Virus record (IMG/VR): IMGVR_UViG_3300023720_000218
Direction: 5' to 3' (one strand)
DNA: 64,000 bases
Source of the DNA: a virus
Below the pieces are notes generated by a model. The model did no database searches. It was given only the letters and a program-made list of their open reading frames with translations, and was not told the origin of the DNA. Shown in pieces: positions 4,247 to 43,311 of this stretch. The number at the start of each line of letters is the position of its first letter. Position 1 is the first letter of the stretch. Both the position numbers and the translations under genes were made by a program.

Positions 4247-4339
4247 CGTGTTTATTTTGTGTTTATGTTGAATAAAAAAAGAGTCAGACAATGCTTTTTG
4301 CATCAATCTGACTCTTTGGTCTTATTTTCCATTTAATAG

Positions 4340-4421
4340 TGGGCAGTATTGGACTCGAACCAATGAAGACGAAAGCCAATAGATTTACAGTCTATCCCGT
4401 TTGCCACTTCGGTAACTACCC
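4340..4421 (-). tRNA. tRNA-Tyr (anticodon GTA), type II with long variable arm
   Basis: RC gives GGGTAGT…GACTGTAAATC…GGTTCGAGTCC…ACTGCCCA. There is a 7-bp acceptor stem, an anticodon loop CTGTAAA and a T-arm ATTGG/TTCGAGT/CCAAT. Confidence 0.75.
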
Positions 4422-4427
4422 GTTTTG

Positions 4428-4512
4428 CGGAAGCAGAAGGATTCAAACCTCCGAAGCCTTTCAGCTTGCCTCTTTAGCAAAGAGGTGGTATCGTTCACTC
4501 ACCCATACTTCC
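4428..4512 (-). tRNA. tRNA-Ser (anticodon GCT), type II
   Basis: RC gives GGAAGTA…CCTCT TTGCTAA AGAGG…GGTTTGAATCC…TGCTTCCG. It has a long variable arm and a perfect acceptor stem. Confidence 0.75.
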
Positions 4513-4585
4513 AATATGCGACCTACAAGATGTCTCGGTGAAACCACCGCATTTCCCTTGTATTTCGGACGTTATTCATTCTGTG

Positions 4586-4657
4586 TAGCGTATCAGAGAA
4601 TCGAACTCTGGTTTCCACCGTGAAAAGGTGACGACCTAACCGTTAGTCGAATACGCC
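4586..4657 (-). tRNA. tRNA-Glu (anticodon TTC)
   Basis: RC gives GGCGTAT…TCACC TTTTCAC GGTGG…CAGAG TTCGATT CTCTG ATACGCT A. The 5' end is uncertain by ±1 nt (G1-U72 wobble). Confidence 0.6.
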
Positions 4658-4662
4658 ATTTG

Positions 4663-4733
4663 TTGAGATACAAGGATTTGAACCTTGAATAGCAGAACCA
4701 AAATCTGCTGTGTTGCCATTACACCATATCTCA
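4663..4733 (-). tRNA. tRNA-Gln (anticodon TTG)
   Basis: RC gives TGAGATA…GCAGA TTTTGGT TCTGC…CAAGG TTCAAAT CCTTG TATCTCA A. The U1-A72 pair is typical of tRNA-Gln. Confidence 0.7.
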
Positions 4734-4738
4734 ATATG

Positions 4739-4811
4739 CGCGAAGAGAAGGACTCGAACCCCCGACAATCAGGTTTGGAATCTGACGTTCTTCCAACTGA
4801 ACTATCTCCGC
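4739..4811 (-). tRNA. tRNA-Trp (anticodon CCA)
   Basis: RC gives GCGGAGA TA GTTC AGTTGGAA GAAC G TCAGA TTCCAAA CCTGA…GGGGG TTCGAGT CCTTC TCTTCGC G. Confidence 0.65.
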
Positions 4812-4818
4812 TTCATTG

Positions 4819-4891
4819 CGCCCGGTGATAGAATCGAACTACCGACCTTTACATTAACAGTGTATTGCTCTACCAATTGAGCTAACCGGAC
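4819..4891 (-). tRNA. tRNA-Asn (anticodon GTT)
   Basis: RC gives GTCCGGT TA GCTC AATTGGTA GAGC A ATACA CTGTTAA TGTAA AGGTC GGTAG TTCGATT CTATC ACCGGGC G. Confidence 0.75.
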
Positions 4892-4897
4892 AATATA

Positions 4898-4965
4898 CCT
4901 ATACTCACCTAACCTGCGATACCCCATTTCAGCGTACCTGTGGGAATTGAACCACACCGTATAGG
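4898..4965. other. tRNA-like element with a perfect 7-bp terminal stem (CCTATAC/GTATAGG) and a T-arm-like hairpin; probably a degenerate pseudo-tRNA
   Basis: The hairpin TGTGG-GAATTGAA-CCACA (read on the minus strand as TTCAATTC) sits at the wrong end for a minus-strand tRNA. No consistent D-arm or anticodon arm could be folded in either orientation. Confidence 0.2.
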
Positions 4966-4970
4966 TTTTG

Positions 4971-5043
4971 TGGAAAGAGATGAAATCGAATCACCTTAAC
5001 CGGATTTTCAGTCCGGCGCATACACCACGTCTGCCATCTTTCC
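4971..5043 (-). tRNA. tRNA-Phe (anticodon GAA), atypical 3-bp D-stem
   Basis: RC gives GGAAAGA…CCGGA CTGAAAA TCCGG TTAA GGTGA TTCGATT TCATC TCTTTCC A. It has a perfect acceptor stem and a canonical T-arm. No CCA is encoded. Confidence 0.6.
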
Positions 5044-5108
5044 ATATTCTCCCTTTATCCCCATACGCCACATCGAAGGGAGAAACAATGCGGCAACTCC
5101 AACTATTG

Positions 5109-5181
5109 TTGCGGAGATTCGACTCGAACGAATGACCTTTGGGCTATGATCCCAACGAGCTACCAGCTGCTCCACTCCGCG
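5109..5181 (-). tRNA. initiator tRNA-fMet (anticodon CAT)
   Basis: RC gives CGCGGAG TG GAGC AGCTGGTA GCTC G TTGGG ATCATAG CCCAA AGGTC ATTCG TTCGAGT CGAAT CTCCGCA A. The C1·A72 mismatch and the three consecutive G-C pairs closing the anticodon stem are bacterial initiator hallmarks. Confidence 0.7.
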
Positions 5182-13015: not shown

Positions 13016-13318
13016 ACCACCGTTTTTATACCCGAAAACAAAGCATTTCTACTGTTTTTATGCTATTTTTCAAGTGTTTTATGCCACAAATATAGCTTAT
13101 TTTCTACATAATTACCATATAAATACTATTATTTTCTACTTAAAATATAGAATAAACACGCTTTTTTGAAGTCTTTTTGCCATGTTTTTATTCGTTGCAT
13201 CATTGAAGACCAATAATCGCAAAATATTGATAAACAAAGGATAACTACTCTATTTCAATAGGAAATACAGATGGAACATTCTCTCTGATATGTATGGTTT
13301 ATGTAGGGTTTTAAAGGC

Positions 13319-13552
13319 AACTATACATATATAACATATTGAAATACAAATCAATGGAAAAATAGTGCATAGTATGTATAGTTTTTTATGCAAACCATAT
13401 TATATATATTTTTTTCCCATACGCAATTTACATATAAACTATACATACTATACATTAAATTTCCATTGACCTAATAATGAATGATTTACACATGTATAGT
13501 TATGAAGTAAACTATACATATACTATACATTTTCAGAAGTAAAACTATACAT
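13319..13552. repeat. iteron cluster: at least 9 copies of (A)ACTATACAT in both orientations; candidate replication origin
   Basis: Forward copies at 13319, 13437, 13447, 13510, 13522 and 13543. Reverse copies (ATGTATAGTT) at 13374 and 13492, plus a 1.5-copy at 13366-13383. The cluster lies in a 750-bp AT-rich non-coding gap upstream of the primase/helicase operon. Confidence 0.5.
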
Positions 13553-13775
13553 CGGACATTCACTTTTGTAATTTATCATTGGAAAAGCCTTAAAAACATC
13601 CATTATTGGCTCCAAAAAAGAAAAAAAAATAAAAATCTTGACCGGGATTGAAACATGCTTGGTGTCTTGGGTAGCCGGGGGGGGGTGCCCTCCCTGCTTT
13701 CATTATCCAGTTGACCGGCAAAGAAGGAGAAAAGCCGCGCTTTGCCTTGATTCTCTTTATATTATACCTATAATA

Positions 13776-27949: not shown

Positions 27950-28854
27950 GTAAAACAGAGAATCAATCCCCCCAACAAGGGAACTTGGGAATGGAACAAC
28001 ACAATGCTCCTTCACCAACAAAAACAGAACCGGTCTCCCCAACACCTTCCACACCACAACCGCCCGTTCCTTCTGCCCCACCAGCCTTTCCAGTACAACT
28101 GAAAGGATTGGAAAGTTGTTTTATCTCCCCTAAAAAGGCATTTATAGCAGCTGGTGGCACAGAACAGCAATTTGCCCGTGAAGTCAATTTCGCTATGCAG
28201 GCAATGTTGAATAATCCTTATTTGATTGACTGTGCCCGGCAATATCCCGATCATCTTGTCGAAGCAATCAAAAACGTTTCTCTTACCGGTCTGACACTCA
28301 ATCCTGAACTAAGATTGGGGTATCTTGTACCATACAAAGGCAAAGTGAAGTTCCAAGCTTCATATATGGGGAAAGTTGATATTTTGATCCGCACCGGCGT
28401 TGTAAAAGATATTTATTCTGATTTGGTTTATGCTAATGACGAGTTCAGCATGACAAAAGGTACCGGTGGCACTATCATCCACAAACCCAATGTATTCGGA
28501 GAACGTGGTGATCTTCTTGGAGGCTACTATTTTGCAGTCTTGACTTCCGGTGTTGTAAAATTCGATGCAATGCCCAAAGCACGTATTGAAGAAATAAAAA
28601 GTCGTAGTGAGGCTGTCAAGAAAGGCAAGCAATCTCCGTGGGACACAGACTTTGAAGAAATGGCTCGAAAAACAATCGTGAACTGGGCTTTCAAATTCCT
28701 GCCCAAAACCGGCATTTCAGATTCCATGATTAAAGTTCTTGAAACAGAGAGCCAGTTGGATGATGAAATGTTTGAAGACTGGAAAAAGGCACAAGGTCAG
28801 AAACCGGACGATTTTGAGGAAGACGATACTCCATACGCAGAAGAAGTCAAGTAA
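27946..28854 (+). CDS. recT: RecT-family single-strand annealing protein
   Basis: The central region (…FAREVNFAMQAMLNNPYL…LNPELRLGYLVPYKGKVKFQASYMGKVDIL…) resembles RecT. It has a Pro-rich N-terminal tail and an acidic C-terminus. Confidence 0.55.
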   Translation: MSKTENQSPQQGNLGMEQHNAPSPTKTEPVSPTPSTPQPPVPSAPPAFPVQLKGLESCFISPKKAFIAAGGTEQQFAREVNFAMQAMLNNPYLIDCARQYPDHLVEAIKNVSLTGLTLNPELRLGYLVPYKGKVKFQASYMGKVDILIRTGVVKDIYSDLVYANDEFSMTKGTGGTIIHKPNVFGERGDLLGGYYFAVLTSGVVKFDAMPKARIEEIKSRSEAVKKGKQSPWDTDFEEMARKTIVNWAFKFLPKTGISDSMIKVLETESQLDDEMFEDWKKAQGQKPDDFEEDDTPYAEEVK

Positions 28855-29074: not shown

Positions 29075-29689
29075 ATGAGAACAGTAACAGTTGAAGTGCC
29101 CGAAGGACACATGGTAAAAATCGTGAAAGAAGAAAGTATGCAACCTACTCAAAAAGTTACGGGGGGGGGTAAATTTGAATTTGAGGGTGAGACATTCATC
29201 CCCGGTGACGTAATTATCAATCCGAATCGCGGAGGGGGCAGCATGATGATTCTCTCTGAAATTAGAGAAGAAAGGCCACTCTCTTTTTTACCGGCAATTA
29301 AAGTACCTTTCGGCCTTGTCGCCTATGTTCCTTCCAATGATGAAGGTGACAGAGTTTTTGTAAGACTCACACCCGAAGCTGGTATCGGAGGCATGAAGGG
29401 ATTCCGTAAAGCTACGGAAGAGGAAAAGGCAAAGATGCTTGCCGCCATGAAGGAAGAAAAACATTACTCCTTCAATTTTGAGAAGTTACAGCCTGAATAT
29501 ATCCCGACTGTCGGCGATGTTGTTATTGTATGGGATGATAATAGCAAAGAAAATGCGGTAGTCGGTGTTATGAATGAAATGGATAAAACAGTCAGGCCAT
29601 ACAAGATAAATGATGGTACTTGGTATGGGAACTGCGACAAGTTCGTTTCAGAAGAACAATATAAAAATTTGATTGATGGGAAAGAGTAA
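29075..29689 (+). CDS. hypothetical protein containing an in-frame G9 tract (codons ACG GGG GGG GGT)
   Basis: 204-aa ORF. The 9-G run at 29161-29169 encodes TGGGK. Confidence 0.4.
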   Translation: MRTVTVEVPEGHMVKIVKEESMQPTQKVTGGGKFEFEGETFIPGDVIINPNRGGGSMMILSEIREERPLSFLPAIKVPFGLVAYVPSNDEGDRVFVRLTPEAGIGGMKGFRKATEEEKAKMLAAMKEEKHYSFNFEKLQPEYIPTVGDVVIVWDDNSKENAVVGVMNEMDKTVRPYKINDGTWYGNCDKFVSEEQYKNLIDGKE

Positions 29690-29745
29690 ATCTAAATCGG
29701 GGGGGGCGAGAAATTACACTCCCCTTCTCACAGCTCGCCCAAAGG

Positions 29746-31437: not shown

Positions 31438-31598
31438 CAATGAAGACTGTAAAGAAATACTGGAAGCCGGTACTTGTCGTATCGGCTTTCTTCATTGGCA
31501 ACCGCGTATTCAATCACATAAATGCGTGGTTGGGAATTTCAATAATTATGCTGACAGTAGCATTTATAGTTTATAATATCATTAAAAAAAAGTAGAAA

Positions 31599-33156: not shown

Positions 33157-33612
33157 ATGAAACGAAGGATCATAGGTATAGATGTTGGCAAAAACGGTGG
33201 AATTGTAGTGTACGACACCGAGAATAACAGATTATTGGAGTGTATCAAAATGCCACCAACTCCCAAAGACTTATTAGATTTTCTCTCTATATACAAAGAA
33301 AATAGCGTTTGTTATTTGGAACGAGTGAATGGCATGACCGGACAAAGTGCTTCTGCCTCTTTTGTTTTTGGAGAAGGTTACGGACAGCTGACTATGGGAT
33401 TGATAGCTTGTGGGATTCCGACAGTAACAGTATCTCCACAAACTTGGCAAAAAACTTTAGGATTACGAAATACAGACAAATTGGGTAAGACAGAATGGAA
33501 AAACATCTTAAAGAAGAAAGCCCAACAGCTGTTTCCGTATGCAAAAGTTACATTGGCAACTTCGGATGCCTTACTAATATGTGAATATGGTAGAATTAAA
33601 GAAAATGAATAA
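33157..33612 (+). CDS. RuvC-like Holliday-junction resolvase
   Basis: N-terminal IIGIDVGKNGGIVV (the RuvC/YqgF motif with the first catalytic Asp). 151 aa. Confidence 0.55.
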   Translation: MKRRIIGIDVGKNGGIVVYDTENNRLLECIKMPPTPKDLLDFLSIYKENSVCYLERVNGMTGQSASASFVFGEGYGQLTMGLIACGIPTVTVSPQTWQKTLGLRNTDKLGKTEWKNILKKKAQQLFPYAKVTLATSDALLICEYGRIKENE

Positions 33613-33769
33613 TGGAAAATTTAAAAAAATGCAGCAAATGTGGCCGAGAACTTCCGGTCAGTGAGTTTTGGAGAAATGCTTCAACCGAAGATGGATTGCA
33701 GACATACTGCAAAGAGTGTGGTAATATTTATGCCAAAAACCGTAAGAAAACTCCGGGGGGGGTAATTTG
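33611..33769 (+). CDS. zinc-ribbon protein truncated at a G8 tract (+1 G would extend it to about 92 aa, ending near 33887)
   Basis: MENLKKCSKCGRELPVSEFWRNASTEDGLQTYCKECGNIYAKNRKKTPGGVI*. The G run at 33754-33761 precedes TAATTTGA; with 9 G's the frame stays open to 33887. Confidence 0.4.
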
Positions 33770-33886
33770 AAGAAAATATATTCCAATTCTGAATTGGCAA
33801 GATTTTCTCCACGGGAACTTATCACAGAATTGAAAGCACGTGGATATACCGGAGAATTGAAATACACTCAAACAATATCATTATAA

Positions 33887-34423
33887 ATGGAAAAGTTACG
33901 TCTATTGGTTACAACCAAATGTCCGAACAAATGTCCTATGTGTTGCAACAACTCATGGGATTTTTCAAAATTACCAGTTGTTGAGCACTTTAATTACAAA
34001 GAGATCATGATAACTGGTGGAGAACCACTTTTGTTTCCTGAAAAACTGTCAAATTTGGCCGAAAGTATCAGAACCGTTCAGAAATTGGCCTATGGCAATA
34101 AAGGAAAATTATTTCTATATACGGCACTGGCTGATATGCTTCCCAATTATATCAGATATTTCGATGGAGTTGTTTACACTCCACATTCTGCTAATGATGT
34201 TCATAGTTTATTAAAGGCCAATAATTTTTTGTTGGACTACAAAGATGAACTTATGGAAAGTAAATCTCTTCGACTCAATCTTTTTCCTGATATTAAAAAG
34301 CATATTCCTGACAACACAGACCTTTCGTTATGGAAAGTAAAAGATATGCAATGGATCAAAGATTGCCCGGTTCCGACTGATGAAGAGTTCAAAAGAGTAG
34401 CTGAATTATGGGAGGTGGAATGA
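33887..34423 (+). CDS. radical-SAM activating enzyme (NrdG-like; QueE-like not excluded)
   Basis: CX3CX2C cluster (TTKCPNKCPMCC) and a glycine-rich SAM motif (ITGGEPLLFPE). 178 aa, as for anaerobic RNR activases. Confidence 0.5.
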   Translation: MEKLRLLVTTKCPNKCPMCCNNSWDFSKLPVVEHFNYKEIMITGGEPLLFPEKLSNLAESIRTVQKLAYGNKGKLFLYTALADMLPNYIRYFDGVVYTPHSANDVHSLLKANNFLLDYKDELMESKSLRLNLFPDIKKHIPDNTDLSLWKVKDMQWIKDCPVPTDEEFKRVAELWEVE

Positions 34424-35508
34424 TGAAAGATGTAATTACCCCCCCCCAACATCTCTATCCTTATTGCTGGTCTTTAGAAGATGCTGTTTTTACTAAAGAT
34501 AAAGGAAAGGTGTTTTCTTGTTTTGCATGTGGCGGTGGCTCTACTATGGGTTACAAAATAGCTGGTTACGATGTTATTGGCTGTAATGAGATTGATCCAC
34601 GAATGATGAAATGCTATGAAACAAACCATCATCCCCAGTATAGTTATTTGGAAGATATTCGTGATTTTGTGAGAAGGAAAAATCTTCCCGAAGAATTGTA
34701 CAAATTAGATATATTGGACGGATCACCACCTTGCAGTACATTTAGCATGTCGGGATTACGTGAAGATGCGTGGGGTAAAGAAAAGAAATTCAAGGAAGGT
34801 CAAAAGACACAAGTTTTAGACACGCTCTTTTTTGATTTTATTGCACTTGCCAAACGCTTAAAACCTAAAGTCGTTATTGCTGAAAATGTGAAAGGTCTTC
34901 TTTTAGGGAATGCGATTGATTATGTCAGACGTATATACAAAGACTTTGAGGAAGCTGGTTATTATTGTCAGCATTTTCTTCTTGATGCTTCTAAAATGGG
35001 AGTACCTCAAAAAAGAGAACGTGTATTCTTTATATGTATCAGGCATGATTTGGGAGTCCATTTTCTAAAAGTTTCAGACCTCTTCAATGTTGAACCATAC
35101 ATCGACATGGAATTTAATGAATCGGAAATATATTATGGGGAATATGCGGATTACAAGGGAAAGCCTATTGGCGTAAAAATGAGAAAGTTATTTGAGCAGA
35201 GAGTGGCAGGAGATATTGCTTTGGCAGAGGCCTATAAGAAACAAACTGGAAAACGAGGCTTTTTTAATCAACAATATCTATATGAGAACAAAGTAAGCTA
35301 CACCCTAACAACTCATGCAGACTCAATTATTCCTTTTAAGCAGCCTATATATTTATCACGGTCAGAAGTATGTAATATATCCACATTTCCACAAGATTAT
35401 CATTTCCTCAACCAATCCCCACATTATATCTGTGGAATGAGTGTACCACCCGTTATGATGGCACAAGTAGCCTCACGAGTATGGAAATATTGGTTATCTA
35501 AATTATAA
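34408..35508 (+). CDS. DNA (cytosine-5)-methyltransferase with a C9 tract 10 codons into the ORF
   Basis: Motif I FSCFACGGGSTMGY, motif IV GSPPCSTFS and motif VI ENVKGL. The poly-C at 34439-34447 encodes TPPQ. The likely start is the ATG at 34420, preceded by GGGAGGTGG. Confidence 0.75.
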   Translation: MGGGMMKDVITPPQHLYPYCWSLEDAVFTKDKGKVFSCFACGGGSTMGYKIAGYDVIGCNEIDPRMMKCYETNHHPQYSYLEDIRDFVRRKNLPEELYKLDILDGSPPCSTFSMSGLREDAWGKEKKFKEGQKTQVLDTLFFDFIALAKRLKPKVVIAENVKGLLLGNAIDYVRRIYKDFEEAGYYCQHFLLDASKMGVPQKRERVFFICIRHDLGVHFLKVSDLFNVEPYIDMEFNESEIYYGEYADYKGKPIGVKMRKLFEQRVAGDIALAEAYKKQTGKRGFFNQQYLYENKVSYTLTTHADSIIPFKQPIYLSRSEVCNISTFPQDYHFLNQSPHYICGMSVPPVMMAQVASRVWKYWLSKL

Positions 35509-35933: not shown

Positions 35934-36483
35934 AGAAGCTGTTCTCAACACTCCTAACCTACCACTCTCCGTTATAAGAAAAGAAATCACATTGGCTGGC
36001 GCAAGAGCCATACTGGTAATTGCGATTAACGAGCTTGTGTCTTTTTTCAATGTTGGAAAAACGATGAATGATGTTCAAGTGGCACTTACCGCTGATCTAA
36101 TAATAGACAGATTCTATTATCTCAAATTGGAGGAAATCAAATTATGTTTCCGTAATGCTATGGCTTCCGGTAAGATTTACGATAGACTGGACGGTAATAT
36201 CATTCTCGGCTGGTTAAATGAATACGATGCACAGCGTGATGAAATTGTTTCTTCTCTTTCAATTAATGAAGCCCATGAACAAAATAATAACAGCACTGGA
36301 ATGTTCTACGGAGAATATATCAAACATCTAACTGAAAGATCGGAAAATGGAGATGAAGAGGCCAAAGAATTATTGGAATCCCATCAATCATTCATACAAA
36401 GGATGAAATCAAATGATAAAGAAGCCGCTTTCAAAAAATGGAAAGAAGAATATTATGGAAGAACTAAGAGACAAACTACTTGA
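35800..36483 (+). CDS. hypothetical protein (start uncertain; overlaps the preceding ORF)
   Basis: 227-aa ORF. Confidence 0.3.
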   Translation: MILTSMGNNLIQVNSNLPATEKKALKDLLTLQAEYYKGLHVSSIKEAVLNTPNLPLSVIRKEITLAGARAILVIAINELVSFFNVGKTMNDVQVALTADLIIDRFYYLKLEEIKLCFRNAMASGKIYDRLDGNIILGWLNEYDAQRDEIVSSLSINEAHEQNNNSTGMFYGEYIKHLTERSENGDEEAKELLESHQSFIQRMKSNDKEAAFKKWKEEYYGRTKRQTT

Positions 36484-37165
36484 CTGGGCGAAACAATTTG
36501 AAACACCTGATTTTATAAAAGATGATCCTATATTTTTTCCACATAAGTACAATGATAAAAAGGACATAGAAATCAGTGCTTTTCTTACTTCATGGATAGC
36601 TTTCGGGAATCGCAAACTGATAATGCAGCAAGCAGAAATTTTGGATAATCTAATGGGTAATTCTCCTTATGCCTTCATTATGAACAAAGTATGGGAACAA
36701 TACAAAGAAAATACAAATACCTTCTACCGTATGTTCACCTACCATGACTTCTTCTGCATTTGCCAGCGGTTGTACAACATATATCAGGAATGGGATGATT
36801 TGGAAGTATTTTATGAGGGTTACAACAATGTTATCCGTGAAATACAAACAGATTTTGGTGGCGTAAAAGGTATTCCAAAATTGGAGCGTGATTCTCCATG
36901 CAAGCGTATTTGTCTGTTTCTACGGTGGGTAGTACGAAAATCGCCGGTGGATTTAGGTATTTGGAATATTATTCACCCGACAGAATTATACATACCATTG
37001 GATGCACATGTTGCAAAAATGGCACACCAGCTTGGGATAACAACACGCAAAACAGAGGACTGGAAAATGGTTCAACAAGTAACCAATTACATGAAAACAA
37101 TTTTCCCGGATGATCCGTGCCGGGGAGATTTTGCATTATTCGGATATAGTATTAACAATAAATAA
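36413..37165 (+). CDS. hypothetical protein
   Basis: 250-aa ORF. No motif recognised with confidence. Confidence 0.35.
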   Translation: MIKKPLSKNGKKNIMEELRDKLLDWAKQFETPDFIKDDPIFFPHKYNDKKDIEISAFLTSWIAFGNRKLIMQQAEILDNLMGNSPYAFIMNKVWEQYKENTNTFYRMFTYHDFFCICQRLYNIYQEWDDLEVFYEGYNNVIREIQTDFGGVKGIPKLERDSPCKRICLFLRWVVRKSPVDLGIWNIIHPTELYIPLDAHVAKMAHQLGITTRKTEDWKMVQQVTNYMKTIFPDDPCRGDFALFGYSINNK

Positions 37166-38622: not shown

Positions 38623-39472
38623 ATGAAAATATTAGTAAGTTTTTCAGGTGGTAAGGATTCACAAGCATGTTTGATCCAAGCCTTCAAACAATATGGGGGG
38701 GGATTTAATCGCTGTGTTTTGTGACACCGGCTGGGAACACCCTGACACATATAAACATGTGAATGATGTTTGTCTGCAAATGGGAGTAAGACTTATAACT
38801 CTCAAATCAAAATACGATTTTGTGTCTTTGGCAGTTCACAAGAAAAGATTTCCTTCCACGAATGCACGGTTTTGTACCAGTGAACTAAAAATGAAGCCAA
38901 TGATTGATTATGTACTTTCTTTGAAAGAAAGCTGCATTATTATACAAGGTATCAGAGCCGGAGAAAGTACAGCACGTGCGGCAATGGAAGAGGAATGTAT
39001 GTACTTCAAATCGTATTTTCAACCTAATAAGAAAGGAAGAACTGAAAACTACCGAAGTAAGGATGTCAAAGAATGGTGTTCCCAATTTGACGCTTCTGTT
39101 CTAAGACCGATCTTCAAATGGAGTGCACAGCAAGTTATAGATTGCATACTGGATGCAGGGCAGAAACCGAATCCATTGTATTATCGTGGATTCTCACGTG
39201 TTGGATGTTTCCCGTGTATCATGTGTCGGCATAAAGAAATTGAACTTATAGCCAAAAATGATCCTGAAATGTGTCAACGTCTGATTCAAGCAGAGAAAAA
39301 CGTGGGACATTCCTTCTTTCCTCCATCATACATACCTCAAAGATTCTGTAAAAACAAACAATATCCTTATGTAGAGGAAGTTTTGGAGTACGTTAAAGAA
39401 CATACCCCTGATATGTTCGAGCCGGAAAGTGGATATGCCTGCATGAGCCTGTTTCATGGACTATGCGAATAA
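38623..39472 (+). CDS. PAPS-reductase-family / PP-loop ATP pyrophosphatase-like protein, split by a frameshift at a G8 tract
   Basis: The ATG at 38623 gives MKILVSFSGGKDSQACLIQAFKQYGGG… (SGGKDS PP-loop) and stops at 38724. The tract-downstream frame (38693..39472; its N-terminal part up to 38724 overlaps the first frame) continues …DLIAVFCDTGWEHPDTY…. Removing one G from the run at 38695-38702 fuses them into a protein of about 282 aa. Confidence 0.55.
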
Positions 39473-40603: not shown

Positions 40604-41272
40604 ATGCCGATAAGCGAAGTATATAACATGGACTGTATGGAATACATGAAGGGGATTCCTGATAAGTTCTTTGATTTAGCGATAGTCGATCCCCAGTATG
40701 GCATAGACATAATGCACAAGGGTGGGATGCCGAAGCATTTAGGCTTTAAGCAGTATAAACGCAAGGATTGGGACAAGAAACCACCTGGCAAAAGATATTT
40801 TCAGGAGTTATTTAGAGTGAGTAAGAATCAAATAATTTTCGGTGGCAACTATTTTACTCAACATCTGCCTCCTAAAATGGGTTGGATCGTCTGGGATAAG
40901 GGGCAACATGGACTAACAATGTCTGACGGAGAATTGGCATGGAGTAGTTTTGACAAAGCTCTTCGGATCATAACTCTAAACCGGTGTACAATTGGAGAAC
41001 GAGGTGGAAATATCCATCGTTGTCAGAAGCCAGTGAAATTATATGCTGAAATATTAAGAAAAAACGCCAAAGAGGGAGACAAAATTTTTGATAGTCATTT
41101 AGGTTCAGGAAGTAGCAGAATAGCTGCTTATGGACTTGGATTCGATTTCTATGCAACTGAAATAGATGAAGAATACTTTGAAGCACAAGAAGAACGTTTT
41201 CACCGGGAATGTTTTGGGGAGATAAAAACAGAGAGAGGAACGTTGGTTCAAACTAATTTATTTGATAAATAG
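40604..41272 (+). CDS. DNA N6-adenine / N4-cytosine methyltransferase (N-4/N-6 methylase family)
   Basis: Motif IV DPQY (LAIVDPQYG) and motif I FDSHLGSGSS. 222 aa. Confidence 0.65.
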   Translation: MPISEVYNMDCMEYMKGIPDKFFDLAIVDPQYGIDIMHKGGMPKHLGFKQYKRKDWDKKPPGKRYFQELFRVSKNQIIFGGNYFTQHLPPKMGWIVWDKGQHGLTMSDGELAWSSFDKALRIITLNRCTIGERGGNIHRCQKPVKLYAEILRKNAKEGDKIFDSHLGSGSSRIAAYGLGFDFYATEIDEEYFEAQEERFHRECFGEIKTERGTLVQTNLFDK

Positions 41273-41669: not shown

Positions 41670-42587
41670 ATGAATATTGGAATTTTAGCCGTTGATAGCA
41701 ATTTCCCCAATTTAGCACTTATGAAGATCAGTGCTTACCACAAAGCAAGAGGCGATCAAGTGGAATGGTATAATCCACTATGTAAATATGATAAAGTATA
41801 TGCAGCTAAAGTTTTCACTTTCACACCCGACTATAACTATTATATCAATGCTAACCAAATAGAAAAAGGTGGTACTGGATATGATATTGAAAAAGTTCTT
41901 CCAATTGAGGTTGATCGTCTTCAACCTGATTACTCGATCTACAATATTGACTCCAATTTGTCCTATGGGTTTCTGACACGTGGGTGTCCCAATCGGTGTA
42001 AATGGTGGGTTGTTCCTAAAAAAGAAGGAAAAATCTCACCTTATATGGATATTGAGGAAATAACAGCCGGACGGAAGAAAGCTATCCTTATGGATAATAA
42101 TATACTGGCCTCAAACTATGGCTTGCAGCAAATAGAGAAAATCATCAAACTGGGTATCAAAGTGGATTTTAATCAAGGACTGGATGCTCGTTTAATCACG
42201 GATGAAATCGCTCGGCTACTTGCAAAAGTAAAATGGATTAAACGTATTCGCTTTGGATGCGATACACCGGGACAGATTGCAGAAGTTGAACGTGCTTCCG
42301 CTTTAATAGACAAGTATGGATATAAAGGGGAATATTTCTTGTATTGCATCCTTATGGACTTTGAAGAATCGTTTGCGCGCGTCAACTACTGGAAATCTAA
42401 AAGCCGCCGTTTTCTTCCACATTGTCAACCCTTTCGTGATCTGAACAATCCACACCAAATTATTCCACAGTGGCAGAAAGACATGGCACATTGGGCTGAT
42501 AGGAAGGAAATATACATGAGTTGCGACTTCAAAGACTTTTCACCAAGAAAAGGTTTTTTATGTAAGGAATACTTTAAAATATTGTGA
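41670..42587 (+). CDS. hypothetical protein
   Basis: 305-aa ORF containing a TRGCPNRC segment. No firm family was assigned. Confidence 0.35.
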   Translation: MNIGILAVDSNFPNLALMKISAYHKARGDQVEWYNPLCKYDKVYAAKVFTFTPDYNYYINANQIEKGGTGYDIEKVLPIEVDRLQPDYSIYNIDSNLSYGFLTRGCPNRCKWWVVPKKEGKISPYMDIEEITAGRKKAILMDNNILASNYGLQQIEKIIKLGIKVDFNQGLDARLITDEIARLLAKVKWIKRIRFGCDTPGQIAEVERASALIDKYGYKGEYFLYCILMDFEESFARVNYWKSKSRRFLPHCQPFRDLNNPHQIIPQWQKDMAHWADRKEIYMSCDFKDFSPRKGFLCKEYFKIL

Positions 42588-42821: not shown

Positions 42822-43311
42822 ATGAATACATCTTTTGAACGATCTGCAAACGCTTCCGATGAATGGTACACACCACGAGAAATCATTGAAGCATTAGGTG
42901 AATTTGACCTTGATCCATGTGCTCCCATGCACCCTCTTTGGCCTACCGCAAAAATCATGTACAACAAGCAGGACAATGGTCTTATACAAAATTGGGGGGC
43001 GAATTTGGCTTAACCCTCCGTACTCCAAACCGCTTATATGGCAGTTTGTAGAGAAATTGGCAGAACACGGCAACGGTATAGCACTACTTTTTAACCGGTG
43101 TGACAGCAATAAGTTTCAAGACATCATCTTCACGAAAGCAACCGGTATGATGTTTTTGAGGAATCGAATAAAATTCTTCCGTCCCGATGGAACACGTGGG
43201 GACAGCCCCGGTTGCGGTAGTGTTCTTATTGCATTTGGCCGGGAAAATGCCGAAATTTTAAGGAACTGCTCTTTACAAGGCAAATATGTTGAACTTAACA
43301 ATGATAAATGA
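42822..43311 (+). CDS. phage Dam-family DNA N6-adenine methyltransferase, split by a frameshift at a G6 tract
   Basis: Frame A (42822..43013) has SDEWYTPREIIEALGEFDLDPCAP. Frame B (to 43311) has IWLNPPYSKP. One G fewer at 42994-42999 gives the contiguous …LIQNWGRIWLNPPYS…. Confidence 0.55.

What the first reader, a model, noticed from the sequence alone, without database searches (positions are those of the whole stretch)
34408..34460. C5-cytosine methyltransferase with a C9 tract right after its start codon: candidate phase-variable methylase
ATG ATG AAA GAT GTA ATT ACC CCC CCC CAA… is in frame with exactly 9 C's. The ±1 variants terminate within a few codons. This is the classic ON/OFF switch architecture of phase-variable Mod methyltransferases, here in a phage Dcm-like gene.
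Basis: partly seen in the sequence, partly recalled or inferred. Interest (0 to 1): 0.65.

Follow-up and report, generated by a model that had tools for sequence, protein, structure and literature searches.

The report
Hypervariable poly-C switch in phage methylase
A very common human-gut Bacteroides phage (LoVEphage) has a run of nine C's just after the start of its cytosine DNA methylase gene; the run's length differs between otherwise identical phage genomes, turning the gene on or off, and it is one of at least seven such unstable runs in this phage.

Summary
C9 lies at 34439-34447, in codons 7-10 of a C5-cytosine methyltransferase (PF00145, E=1.4e-44). A change of one C stops translation after 18 or 25 codons.

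The window is a LoVEphage-type temperate Bacteroides/Phocaeicola phage. In 118 related sequences the tract is 6-12 C (8: 41, 9: 46), and about 42% are in frame. Groups with identical 300-nt flanks on both sides carry 2-5 different lengths. High-coverage assemblies split 5 C8 to 5 C9.

Out-of-frame alleles keep an intact downstream ORF as often as in-frame ones (78% vs 81%). The gene is under purifying selection (dN/dS about 0.2). The tract sits in a non-conserved N-terminal tail, directly before a conserved segment; homologs in other phages lack it.

It is not alone. The window has six G/C runs of 8 or more (about 0.5 expected), and all vary between relatives. They affect a Dam-like methylase, a PAPS-reductase-like enzyme and other genes.

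Best reading: a slipped-strand contingency locus, i.e. a phase-variable methylase, within a multi-locus set. Not shown: switching within a population, and the methylation phenotype.

This is a new member of a known kind (phasevarion MTases; phage contingency loci in Campylobacter phages and T2 agt). I found no report of it for Bacteroides phages.

The parts
34420..35508 (+). C5-cytosine DNA methyltransferase CDS (362 aa; an alternative in-frame ATG lies at 34408)
   Evidence: ORF list; PF00145 E=1.4e-44; TIGR00675 dcm; PDB relatives 8yf3, M.HaeIII and M.HhaI
34439..34447 (+). C9 homopolymer (codons 7-10, T-P-P-Q): the proposed frameshift switch
   Evidence: 6-12 C in 118 relatives
34420..34423 (+). 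ATGA start/stop overlap with the upstream HxsC-like radical-SAM ORF (33887..34423), preceded by GGGAGGTGGA
   Evidence: weak TIGR03977 hit for the upstream ORF
34450..34509 (+). Conserved N-terminal segment (HLYPYCWSLEDAVFTKDKGK) directly after the tract; lost in out-of-frame alleles
   Evidence: In 104 tract-free homologs: Y15 96%, W17 99%, F24/K26/G29 100%, while residues 1-8 are gapped in 38-91% of them
34513..34554 (+). Motif I (SAM binding, FSCFACGGGSTMGY); the truncated gene calls in C8/C10 genomes start after it
   Evidence: annotations; P0003 (320 aa) starts at MGYK
34720..34746 (+). Motif IV (GSPPCSTFS, catalytic Cys)
34879..34899 (+). Motif VI (AENVKGL)
35008..35028 (+). Motif VIII (QKRERVF)
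35101..35334 (+). Variable region between motifs VIII and X (presumed target-recognition domain); differs between LoVEphage alleles that share the same tract-bearing leader
   Evidence: Column conservation is 0.78-0.83 here against 0.96-1.0 elsewhere; at least 5 allele groups
35434..35457 (+). Motif X (GMSVPPVM)
35260..35265 (+). T6 run; a second, rarer recurrent frameshift site in the same gene (tail ...FLINNIYMRTK*)
   Evidence: Six relatives are truncated here; sequence
29161..29169 (+). G9 tract near codon 30 of a 204-aa hypothetical gene; in frame in the window
   Evidence: lengths 8-10 in relatives; in frame in 26/33
29699..29706 (+). G8 tract at codons 9-11 of a 99-aa hypothetical gene; in frame in the window
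   Evidence: lengths 7-11 in relatives; in frame in 24/39
33755..33762 (+). G8 tract in a zinc-ribbon protein gene; the window encodes the short 52-aa form, and +1 gives a 91-aa form
   Evidence: many length variants; long form in 35/108; zinc-ribbon hits
38695..38702 (+). G8 tract in a PAPS-reductase-like PP-loop gene. The window is out of frame: the PP-loop part (MKILVSFSGGKDS...) is cut off from the rest, which can restart at an ATG that fuses with the tract
   Evidence: PF01507; length variants; full length in 12/39
42994..42999 (+). G6 tract (6-10 in relatives) splitting a Dam-like N6-adenine MTase (42822..43013 plus 42898..43311); out of frame in the window, in frame at G8
   Evidence: PF05869 Dam on intact alleles; lengths; in frame in 9/21
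13677..13685 (+). G9 tract in a roughly 760-nt intergenic region; also variable in length
   Evidence: 7: 2, 8: 12, 9: 13, 10: 2 in 29 sequences; context

Best explanation
The C9 run is a hypermutable simple-sequence repeat, i.e. a contingency locus. It lies in the dispensable N-terminal tail of an orphan C5-cytosine DNA methyltransferase of a LoVEphage-type temperate Bacteroides/Phocaeicola phage.

Proposed mechanism: slipped-strand mispairing during phage or prophage replication adds or removes a C. Lengths of 6, 9 or 12 keep ATG 34420 in frame with the 362-aa enzyme (ON). Lengths of 7, 8, 10 or 11 end translation after 18-27 codons (OFF), and what remains lacks the conserved N-terminal segment.

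The phage population is therefore a mixture of MTase-ON and MTase-OFF genomes, and the same happens at several other G/C tracts in DNA-modification genes.

Shown here: the tract, its frame consequences, its extreme length polymorphism on identical backgrounds, the intact state of OFF alleles, and purifying selection on the gene.

Inferred: the slippage mechanism, reversibility on short time scales, and the benefit. The proposed benefit is bet-hedging: m5C protects against cognate restriction enzymes, while unmethylated DNA escapes methylation-dependent defences, across the phage's many host species.
For: - **Tract length across relatives.** Among 118 usable relatives: 6: 2, 7: 11, 8: 41, 9: 46, 10: 13, 11: 4, 12: 1. 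Seven complete or near-complete phage genomes, including the window, give 9, 8, 8, 9, 9, 10, 8.
- **Identical backgrounds.** Seven of the ten groups with 100% identical 300-nt flanks on both sides hold 2-5 lengths each. That is at least 19 length changes against zero substitutions in 600 flanking sites.
- **Nearest relative.** Against PV4-TP1, all six small indels in the conserved 12 kb fall in homopolymers, five of them G/C tracts.
- **High-coverage assemblies.** SPAdes contigs with coverage 22-484 split 5 C8 to 5 C9 (names, lengths).
- **OFF alleles are not decaying.** The downstream ORF is intact in 46/59 OFF alleles and 35/43 ON alleles. Median dN/dS is 0.22, and 0.29 for OFF/OFF pairs.
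- **Position in the protein.** Residues 11-30, directly after the tract, are strongly conserved in 104 homologs. Residues 1-8 are not, and those homologs, which sit in other phages, have no tract.
- **No interruptions.** In the scan that did not require a run of C's, all 24 complete tracts were uninterrupted and at least 7 long.
- **Genome-wide pattern.** The window has six G/C runs of 8 or more against about 0.5 expected. All vary in relatives, and 13 genomes show 8 ON/OFF combinations.
- **Precedents.** An A9 run in T2 agt toggles DNA glucosylation between TgvAB and McrBC restriction (PMC12633550). Campylobacter phages carry polyG tracts (Sorensen 2021, cited).
Against: - No read-level data, so switching within one clonal population is not shown. 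All the evidence comes from differences between assemblies.
- Many metagenome contigs have low coverage, and the extreme lengths (6, 7, 10, 11) come mostly from those.
- The in-frame fraction (42%) is only modestly above the 33% expected with no selection on frame, and the sequences are not independent.
- A8 control runs also vary, though less (25-36% non-modal against 61% for the C tract).
- The metagenome and genome scans required at least 6 C, so short or interrupted alleles would be missed there.
- The target motif, when the gene is expressed, and any fitness trade-off are unknown.
- OFF alleles could be leaky through ribosomal slippage at CCC-C or through RNA polymerase slippage.
Confidence: 0.75

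Rival explanations
1. Non-adaptive mutational hotspot. The tract really is hypermutable, but it has no selected function. The methylase is often dispensable and simply flickers, with frames close to random.
For: The in-frame fraction is 42%, close to 33%. Other tracts are in frame in 31-43% of genomes. A-runs of 8 also vary.
Against: OFF alleles keep an intact ORF as often as ON alleles. dN/dS is about 0.2-0.3, even between OFF alleles. The tract is uninterrupted in every complete sequence, despite large divergence elsewhere in the gene (dS up to 1.4). It is made of the rarest Pro codon. G/C runs of 8 or more are about 12 times over-represented, and most lie in 5' parts of genes. Related phages that carry the same MTase family have almost none.
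Confidence: 0.15
2. The tract tunes expression level and is not a true ON/OFF switch. Enzyme would still be made from out-of-frame alleles, through +1/-1 ribosomal slippage of tRNA-Pro on the C run, through RNA polymerase slippage, or through initiation at the internal GTG at 34510.
For: The GTG at 34510 precedes motif I, and some C5 MTases (M.HaeIII) start only a few residues before motif I. CCC-C sites near start codons are known +1 frameshift sites (my own knowledge, not tested here).
Against: A start at the GTG would remove residues 11-30, which are 94-100% conserved at several positions in 104 homologs. The matching Val codon is GTA in homolog L128, so it is not a conserved start. Gene callers did not choose it. 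Slippage efficiencies are unknown.
Confidence: 0.07
3. Sequencing or assembly artefact. Homopolymer length is miscalled, and the real tract is always C9.
For: Low-coverage contigs contribute most of the extreme lengths. Homopolymers are error-prone on several platforms.
Against: Ten high-coverage Illumina assemblies split 5 C8 to 5 C9. Independently finished phage genomes and an isolate genome (B. acidifaciens DSM 15896, C8) differ. The flanks are error-free. The C6 run at 27968 is stable in 25/27.
Confidence: 0.03

Closest known systems
Phasevarions: phase-variable Type III mod methyltransferases (modA, modH, modM of Haemophilus, Neisseria, Helicobacter, Moraxella)
   Same: A simple-sequence repeat inside the 5' part of the MTase ORF shifts the frame and switches the enzyme ON or OFF. 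Different target-recognition-domain alleles sit behind the same switch; here divergence is concentrated between motifs VIII and X.
   Different: Those are N6-adenine Type III Mod enzymes with a Res partner on bacterial chromosomes, and they are studied as regulators of host gene expression. This is an orphan C5-cytosine MTase (PF00145) in a temperate phage, with no nuclease gene recognised next to it.
Phage contingency locus in T2 agt (Gomez, Barrick and Waters 2025, bioRxiv, PMC12633550)
   Same: A 9-base homopolymer inside a phage DNA-modification gene gives reversible frameshifts, so progeny differ in DNA modification and escape opposing defences.
   Different: T2 is a lytic coliphage. Its run is A9 in mid-gene (bases 288-296) of a glucosyltransferase, and mutant frequencies of about 1e-4 to 1e-3 were measured in the laboratory. 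Here the run is C9 at codons 7-10 of a methyltransferase in a temperate gut phage, ON and OFF alleles are each common as majority alleles in natural samples, and nothing has been measured experimentally.
Hypermutable polyG tracts of Campylobacter phages (Sorensen et al. 2021, Cell Rep 35:109214; cited)
   Same: Several G/C homopolymers per phage genome, which create phenotypic diversity among progeny.
   Different: I did not read this paper. From my own knowledge the tracts lie in receptor-binding and other structural genes, in a host genus that itself relies on polyG phase variation. Here they lie in the early/DNA-metabolism module, and the hosts (Bacteroides) are known for invertase-driven rather than repeat-driven phase variation (abstracts).
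Homopolymer-switched Type II/IIG methyltransferases of Helicobacter pylori and Campylobacter jejuni
   Same: A G/C homopolymer in an MTase ORF causes strain-to-strain ON/OFF differences. I did not open these papers; the H. pylori methylome paper is only listed, and this comparison rests on my own knowledge.
   Different: Those are chromosomal and usually part of restriction-modification systems. This one is phage-borne and orphan.

Membership tests
C5-cytosine DNA methyltransferase (Pfam PF00145 / TIGR00675 dcm) | Profile match above the curated cut-off | tested here: met
   PF00145: 153 bits against a cut-off of 22. TIGR00675: 124 bits against 100.65.
C5-cytosine DNA methyltransferase (Pfam PF00145 / TIGR00675 dcm) | Catalytic and SAM-binding motifs I (FxGxG-like), IV (PC), VI (ENV), VIII (QxRxR) and X | tested here: met
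   FSCFACGGGS, GSPPCSTFS, AENVKGL, QKRERVF and GMSVPPVM were located.
C5-cytosine DNA methyltransferase (Pfam PF00145 / TIGR00675 dcm) | Demonstrated m5C activity and a known target motif | not testable with these tools
   Needs bisulfite, EM-seq or Nanopore 5mC data.
Simple-sequence-repeat contingency locus (phase-variable gene) | A repeat tract within the ORF or promoter that is long enough to slip | tested here: met
   C9 at 34439-34447, codons 7-10.
Simple-sequence-repeat contingency locus (phase-variable gene) | A change of one repeat unit abolishes the full-length product | tested here: met
   18-aa and 25-aa peptides for C8 and C10. Truncated gene calls in C8/C10 genomes.
Simple-sequence-repeat contingency locus (phase-variable gene) | Tract length is polymorphic among otherwise near-identical genomes, far above the background mutation rate | tested here: met
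   Lengths 6-12 in 118 sequences. At least 19 changes on backgrounds with no substitution in 600 nt. All small indels against the nearest relative are in homopolymers.
Simple-sequence-repeat contingency locus (phase-variable gene) | The OFF state is reversible: the gene is maintained, not decaying | tested here: inconclusive
   Indirect support only. The ORF is intact in 78% of OFF alleles against 81% of ON alleles, and dN/dS is 0.29 between OFF alleles. No direct reversion was observed.
Simple-sequence-repeat contingency locus (phase-variable gene) | High-frequency switching within a clonal population | not testable with these tools
   No reads are available. The only hint is that 3 contigs (L009, L020, L093) end inside the tract.
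Type III Mod phasevarion | N6-adenine Mod subunit (DPPY-type) with an adjacent res gene | tested here: not met
   The enzyme is a C5 MTase. Its neighbours are an HxsC-like radical-SAM gene and hypothetical genes, with no Res.

The most novel reading that the evidence does not exclude
LoVEphage, one of the most prevalent temperate phages of the human gut, may run a multi-locus epigenetic phasotype system. At least seven hypermutable G/C tracts would independently toggle two or three DNA methyltransferases (C5, Dam-like, and N4/N6-type in some strains), a PP-loop PAPS-reductase-like enzyme and small DNA-binding proteins. Swappable target-recognition alleles sit behind the C5 switch. Every burst would then release a combinatorial mixture of DNA-modification states. 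That could explain how the phage infects several Bacteroides and Phocaeicola species, whose methylation motifs are extremely diverse between isolates. In lysogens, the same switches could act as a prophage-borne phasevarion that reprograms the host methylome.
Probability: 0.35. Interest if true: 0.8.

Novelty: new member of a known kind. Interest (0 to 1): 0.62.

Why it matters
Repeat-driven phase variation of methyltransferases is well known in bacterial pathogens. Contingency loci in phages have been reported only recently, in Campylobacter phages and T-even phages.

This would be a natural-population example in a dominant human-gut phage. ON and OFF alleles of a DNA methylase are each common as the majority allele in high-coverage gut metagenomes, and the same behaviour appears at several other DNA-modification genes.

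It offers a testable mechanism for how a temperate phage copes with hosts whose DNA methylation motifs differ widely between isolates, and for its reported multi-species host range.

It also has a practical consequence. Gene callers split or truncate these genes in roughly half of the deposited genomes, so annotation and clustering of LoVEphage proteins are affected by tract state.

Tried and rejected
- **Internal start.** I considered an internal GTG (34510) or ATG (MGYK) start that would make the tract irrelevant. Rejected as the main reading, because residues 11-30 upstream of it are highly conserved in 104 homologs.
- **Assembly error.** Checked against contig coverage, finished phage genomes, flank identity, and control runs (C6 stable, A8 less variable). 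Not sufficient to explain the data.
- **Pseudogene decay.** Rejected by ORF integrity and dN/dS.
- **Inversion between G8 (33755) and C9 (34439).** These could act as a short inverted repeat driving inversion of the radical-SAM gene between them. No relative shows the inverted arrangement, so I dropped it.
- **Membership of Type III Mod phasevarions.** Failed; this is a C5 MTase with no res gene.
- **Other repeat types.** Tandem Repeats Finder found no multi-base repeat arrays of the phase-variation type in the window.
- **RNA families.** Rfam found only tRNAs.
- **Literature.** Four searches, plus term searches inside the LoVEphage paper and the gut temperate-phage paper, found no mention of homopolymers or phase variation in this phage. 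The LoVEphage paper also had no hit for 'methyltransferase'.
- **Failed scripts.** The first fuzzy-flank script failed on a regex error, and a Markov simulation timed out. Both were redone.
Full report
**1. The observation**

The sequence reads ATG(34420) ATG AAA GAT GTA ATT ACC CCC CCC CAA, with exactly nine C's at 34439-34447. A further in-frame ATG lies at 34408. ATG 34420 overlaps the stop codon of the upstream ORF (33887..34423) as ATGA and follows GGGAGGTGGA.

The ORF ending at 35508 encodes a 362-aa C5-cytosine DNA methyltransferase:
- Pfam PF00145, E=1.4e-44, residues 30-353.
- TIGR00675 dcm, above its cut-off.
- PDB relatives 8yf3, M.HaeIII and M.HhaI.
- Motifs I, IV (PPC), VI (ENV), VIII (QKRERVF) and X located.

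Removing one C gives an 18-aa peptide and adding one gives a 25-aa peptide.

**2. Is it more than chance?**

G/C run lengths in the window decay geometrically: 122 runs of 4, 17 of 5, 3 of 6, none of 7. Then there are three runs of 8 and three of 9. A first-order Markov model expects about 0.5 runs of 8 or more. CCC and GGG are the rarest Pro and Gly codons in the window's long ORFs, at 16% each.

So the C9 run belongs to a distinct class of six long G/C runs: 13677, 29161, 29699, 33755, 34439 and 38695. A seventh, at 42994, is G6 in the window and G6-G10 in relatives.

**3. What the window is**

The region is 98-99% identical to Bacteroides phage LoVEphage (MW660583 and three OY records), Bacteroides phage BI-TP1 and Phocaeicola phage PV4-TP1. 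LoVEphage is a 71-kb phage first described from Danish viromes (PMC8525569). Members of the species have been induced from B. thetaiotaomicron, P. dorei and P. vulgatus lysogens, and it was the most commonly detected induced prophage species in a set of 1,241 gut viromes (PMC12629997).

**4. The decisive comparison**

In the six phage records the tract is 8, 8, 9, 9, 10 and 8 C. Only the two C9 genomes carry a full-length 1107-nt MTase annotation. The others have a 963/969-nt call that starts after motif I.

Scans of IMG/VR, metagenome and genome collections with the upstream flank gave 118 usable sequences.

| Tract length (C) | 6 | 7 | 8 | 9 | 10 | 11 | 12 |
|---|---|---|---|---|---|---|---|
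| Sequences | 2 | 11 | 41 | 46 | 13 | 4 | 1 |

About 42% are in frame.

- **Haplotypes.** Four common sequence variants directly downstream of the tract each show several lengths.
- **Identical flanks.** Seven of the ten groups with 100% identical 300-nt flanks on both sides contain 2-5 lengths each. That is at least 19 length changes against no substitution in 600 flanking sites.
- **Nearest relative.** Against PV4-TP1, all six small indels in the conserved 12 kb are in homopolymers, five of them G/C tracts.
- **High coverage.** Ten SPAdes contigs with coverage 22-484 split 5 C8 to 5 C9. The polymorphism is therefore not a low-coverage artefact, although the extreme lengths come mostly from low-coverage contigs.
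- **Isolate genome.** B. acidifaciens DSM 15896 carries C8.
- **Contig ends.** Three contigs end inside the tract. This is a weak hint of heterogeneity within a sample.

**5. Is an out-of-frame allele really off, and is it decaying?**

In 104 full-length homologs at 59-79% identity that lack the tract, the residues matching query positions 11-30 are strongly conserved: Y15 96%, W17 99%, F24, K26 and G29 100%. Positions 1-8 are gaps in 38-91% of them.

The tract (T7-P8-P9-Q10) therefore sits in the only dispensable part of the N-terminus, directly before a conserved segment. Restarting at the internal GTG (34510) or at the ATG used by annotators would delete that segment, and the ATG start would also lose motif I.

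Tract-free homologs begin ATG CAA AAA CAT AAA TTC CCC TAT... They lie in other Bacteroidales phages whose loci have zero or one G/C run of 7 or more.

Out-of-frame alleles keep an intact downstream ORF in 46/59 cases, against 35/43 for in-frame alleles. Among 40 distinct alleles the median dN/dS is 0.22: 0.17 for ON/ON pairs and 0.29 for OFF/OFF pairs. So OFF alleles show no excess of secondary disruptions, and the gene has been under purifying selection. The direction of the length changes themselves could not be determined. A T6 run at 35260-35265 is a second, rarer recurrent frameshift site.

**6. Allelic diversity behind the switch**

Divergence among LoVEphage MTase alleles is concentrated in residues about 228-305, between motifs VIII and X. 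In C5 MTases this is the target-recognition domain (established knowledge). There are at least five allele groups, and the leader with the tract is shared by all of them. This fits the modular exchange of methyltransferases among Bacteroides prophages reported in PMC10333322. It also resembles the target-recognition alleles of mod genes.

**7. The wider pattern**

Every other long G/C run also varies between relatives.

| Tract | Gene or context | State in the window | Full-length or in frame in relatives |
|---|---|---|---|
| 29161 | 204-aa hypothetical gene, near codon 30 | in frame | 26/33 |
| 29699 | 99-aa hypothetical gene, codons 9-11 | in frame | 24/39 |
| 33755 | zinc-ribbon protein; 52-aa or 91-aa form | short form | long form 35/108 |
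| 34439 | C5 MTase, codons 7-10 | in frame | 52/123 |
| 38695 | PAPS-reductase-like PP-loop enzyme | out of frame | 12/39 |
| 42994 | Dam-like MTase | out of frame | 9/21 |
| 13677 | intergenic | not applicable | not applicable |

- At 38695 the PP-loop part is separated from the rest of the protein in the window. An ATG fused to the tract offers a truncated alternative product.
- Some strains (L003, L004, L124) also have a C9 run in an N4/N6-type MTase. The window reads CCACCTGG at that site.
- Thirteen genomes scored at four tracts show eight ON/OFF combinations.
- A8 control runs vary less (25-36% non-modal against 61% for the C tract), and a C6 run is stable in 25/27.

**8. Most likely mechanism**

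- **Shown:** a long, pure C run at codons 7-10; strict dependence of the full-length product on tract length modulo 3; very frequent and recurrent length changes on identical backgrounds; the gene is maintained under purifying selection.
- **Inferred:**
  - The changes arise by slipped-strand mispairing during replication.
  - They occur often enough to make each phage or lysogen population a mixture.
  - The benefit is bet-hedging between hosts whose restriction enzymes are blocked by the m5C mark and hosts or defences that attack methylated DNA. This is the trade-off shown experimentally for T2 agt with TgvAB and McrBC (PMC12633550).
- **Rivals:** a neutral hotspot, leaky expression, and artefact. 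They are scored separately; none explains the purity, position, over-representation and ORF maintenance together.

**9. Comparison with what is known**

It works like a phasevarion switch and like the phage contingency loci of Campylobacter phages (Sorensen 2021, cited) and T2/T4. It is not a Type III Mod system, because it is a C5 enzyme with no res gene.

Searches of the held literature found no description of homopolymer variation or phase variation in LoVEphage or other Bacteroides phages. The library is incomplete, so this is absence of evidence only.

I classify it as a new member of a known kind. The multi-locus set concentrated in DNA-modification genes is the most interesting extension.

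**10. Limits**

- No reads, no methylation data and no expression data.
- The sequences are not phylogenetically independent.
- The metagenome and genome scans required at least 6 C. The IMG/VR scan did not, and it found 24/24 complete tracts pure and at least 7 long.
- The in-frame fraction is only modestly above one third.

Noticed in passing
window 13677-13685: A G9 run in a roughly 760-nt intergenic region varies from 7 to 10 in 29 related sequences. It is not in any convincing ORF, so if it has a role that role would be regulatory (promoter spacing, terminator or RNA). The neighbouring A9 run (13621) is A8 in most relatives.
   Followed up: partly
window 13300-13560: At least seven copies of AACTATACAT, in direct and inverted orientation, lie in the same intergenic region. 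This looks like an operator or iteron array (a possible origin or repressor-binding region).
   Followed up: partly
window 38695-38702 (gene 38623..39472): The G tract of the PAPS-reductase-like PP-loop gene fuses with an ATG (TATGGGG...). Depending on tract length the gene gives a full-length enzyme, an N-truncated protein without the SGGKDS PP-loop, or neither. The window is in the truncated state.
   Followed up: partly
window 33755-33762 (ORFs 33612..33770 and 33767..33886): The G tract switches a zinc-ribbon protein between a 52-aa form and a 91-aa form. Relatives also carry interrupted variants (GGGAGGGGGGGG). Deposited records annotate the gene variously as HNH endonuclease, Lar-like restriction alleviation protein or hypothetical.
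   Followed up: partly
window 42822..43311: The Dam-like N6-adenine methyltransferase is split in the window by a G6 run, upstream of the NPPY motif. G8 alleles are intact (163 aa, PF05869).
   Followed up: partly
L003/L004 position 12899 and L124 position 13486; window 40604..41272: Some strains carry a C9 run that splits an N4/N6-type methyltransferase. The window has a different, intact allele that reads CCACCTGG at that site, so tracts are gained or lost between alleles.
   Followed up: partly
window 35260-35265: A T6 run inside the C5 MTase is a recurrent secondary frameshift site in six relatives.
   Followed up: partly
window 31584-31591: An A8 run has two main lengths in relatives (A6 in 38, A8 in 13). 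I did not check whether it is coding.
   Followed up: no
L128 position 9142: An unrelated Bacteroidales phage carries a tract-free homolog of the MTase and has a G10 run in the intergenic space just downstream of that gene.
   Followed up: no
window 4339-5181: A cluster of eight tRNA genes on the minus strand (Tyr, Ser, Glu, Gln, Trp, Asn, Phe, Met), in line with the nine tRNAs reported for LoVEphage.
   Followed up: no
window 33887..34423, 36413..37165 and 41670..42587: The methylase sits among genes suggestive of further nucleic-acid modification: an HxsC-like radical-SAM fragment, a TIGR02757/DUF2400 protein, and a gene that relatives annotate as a radical-SAM protein (it had no family hit in my search). 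Their function is unknown.
   Followed up: no
L006 positions 13068-13173: The deposited record OY731433 annotates a 5S rRNA (barrnap) inside the phage genome. This is probably a false positive; I did not check it.
   Followed up: no
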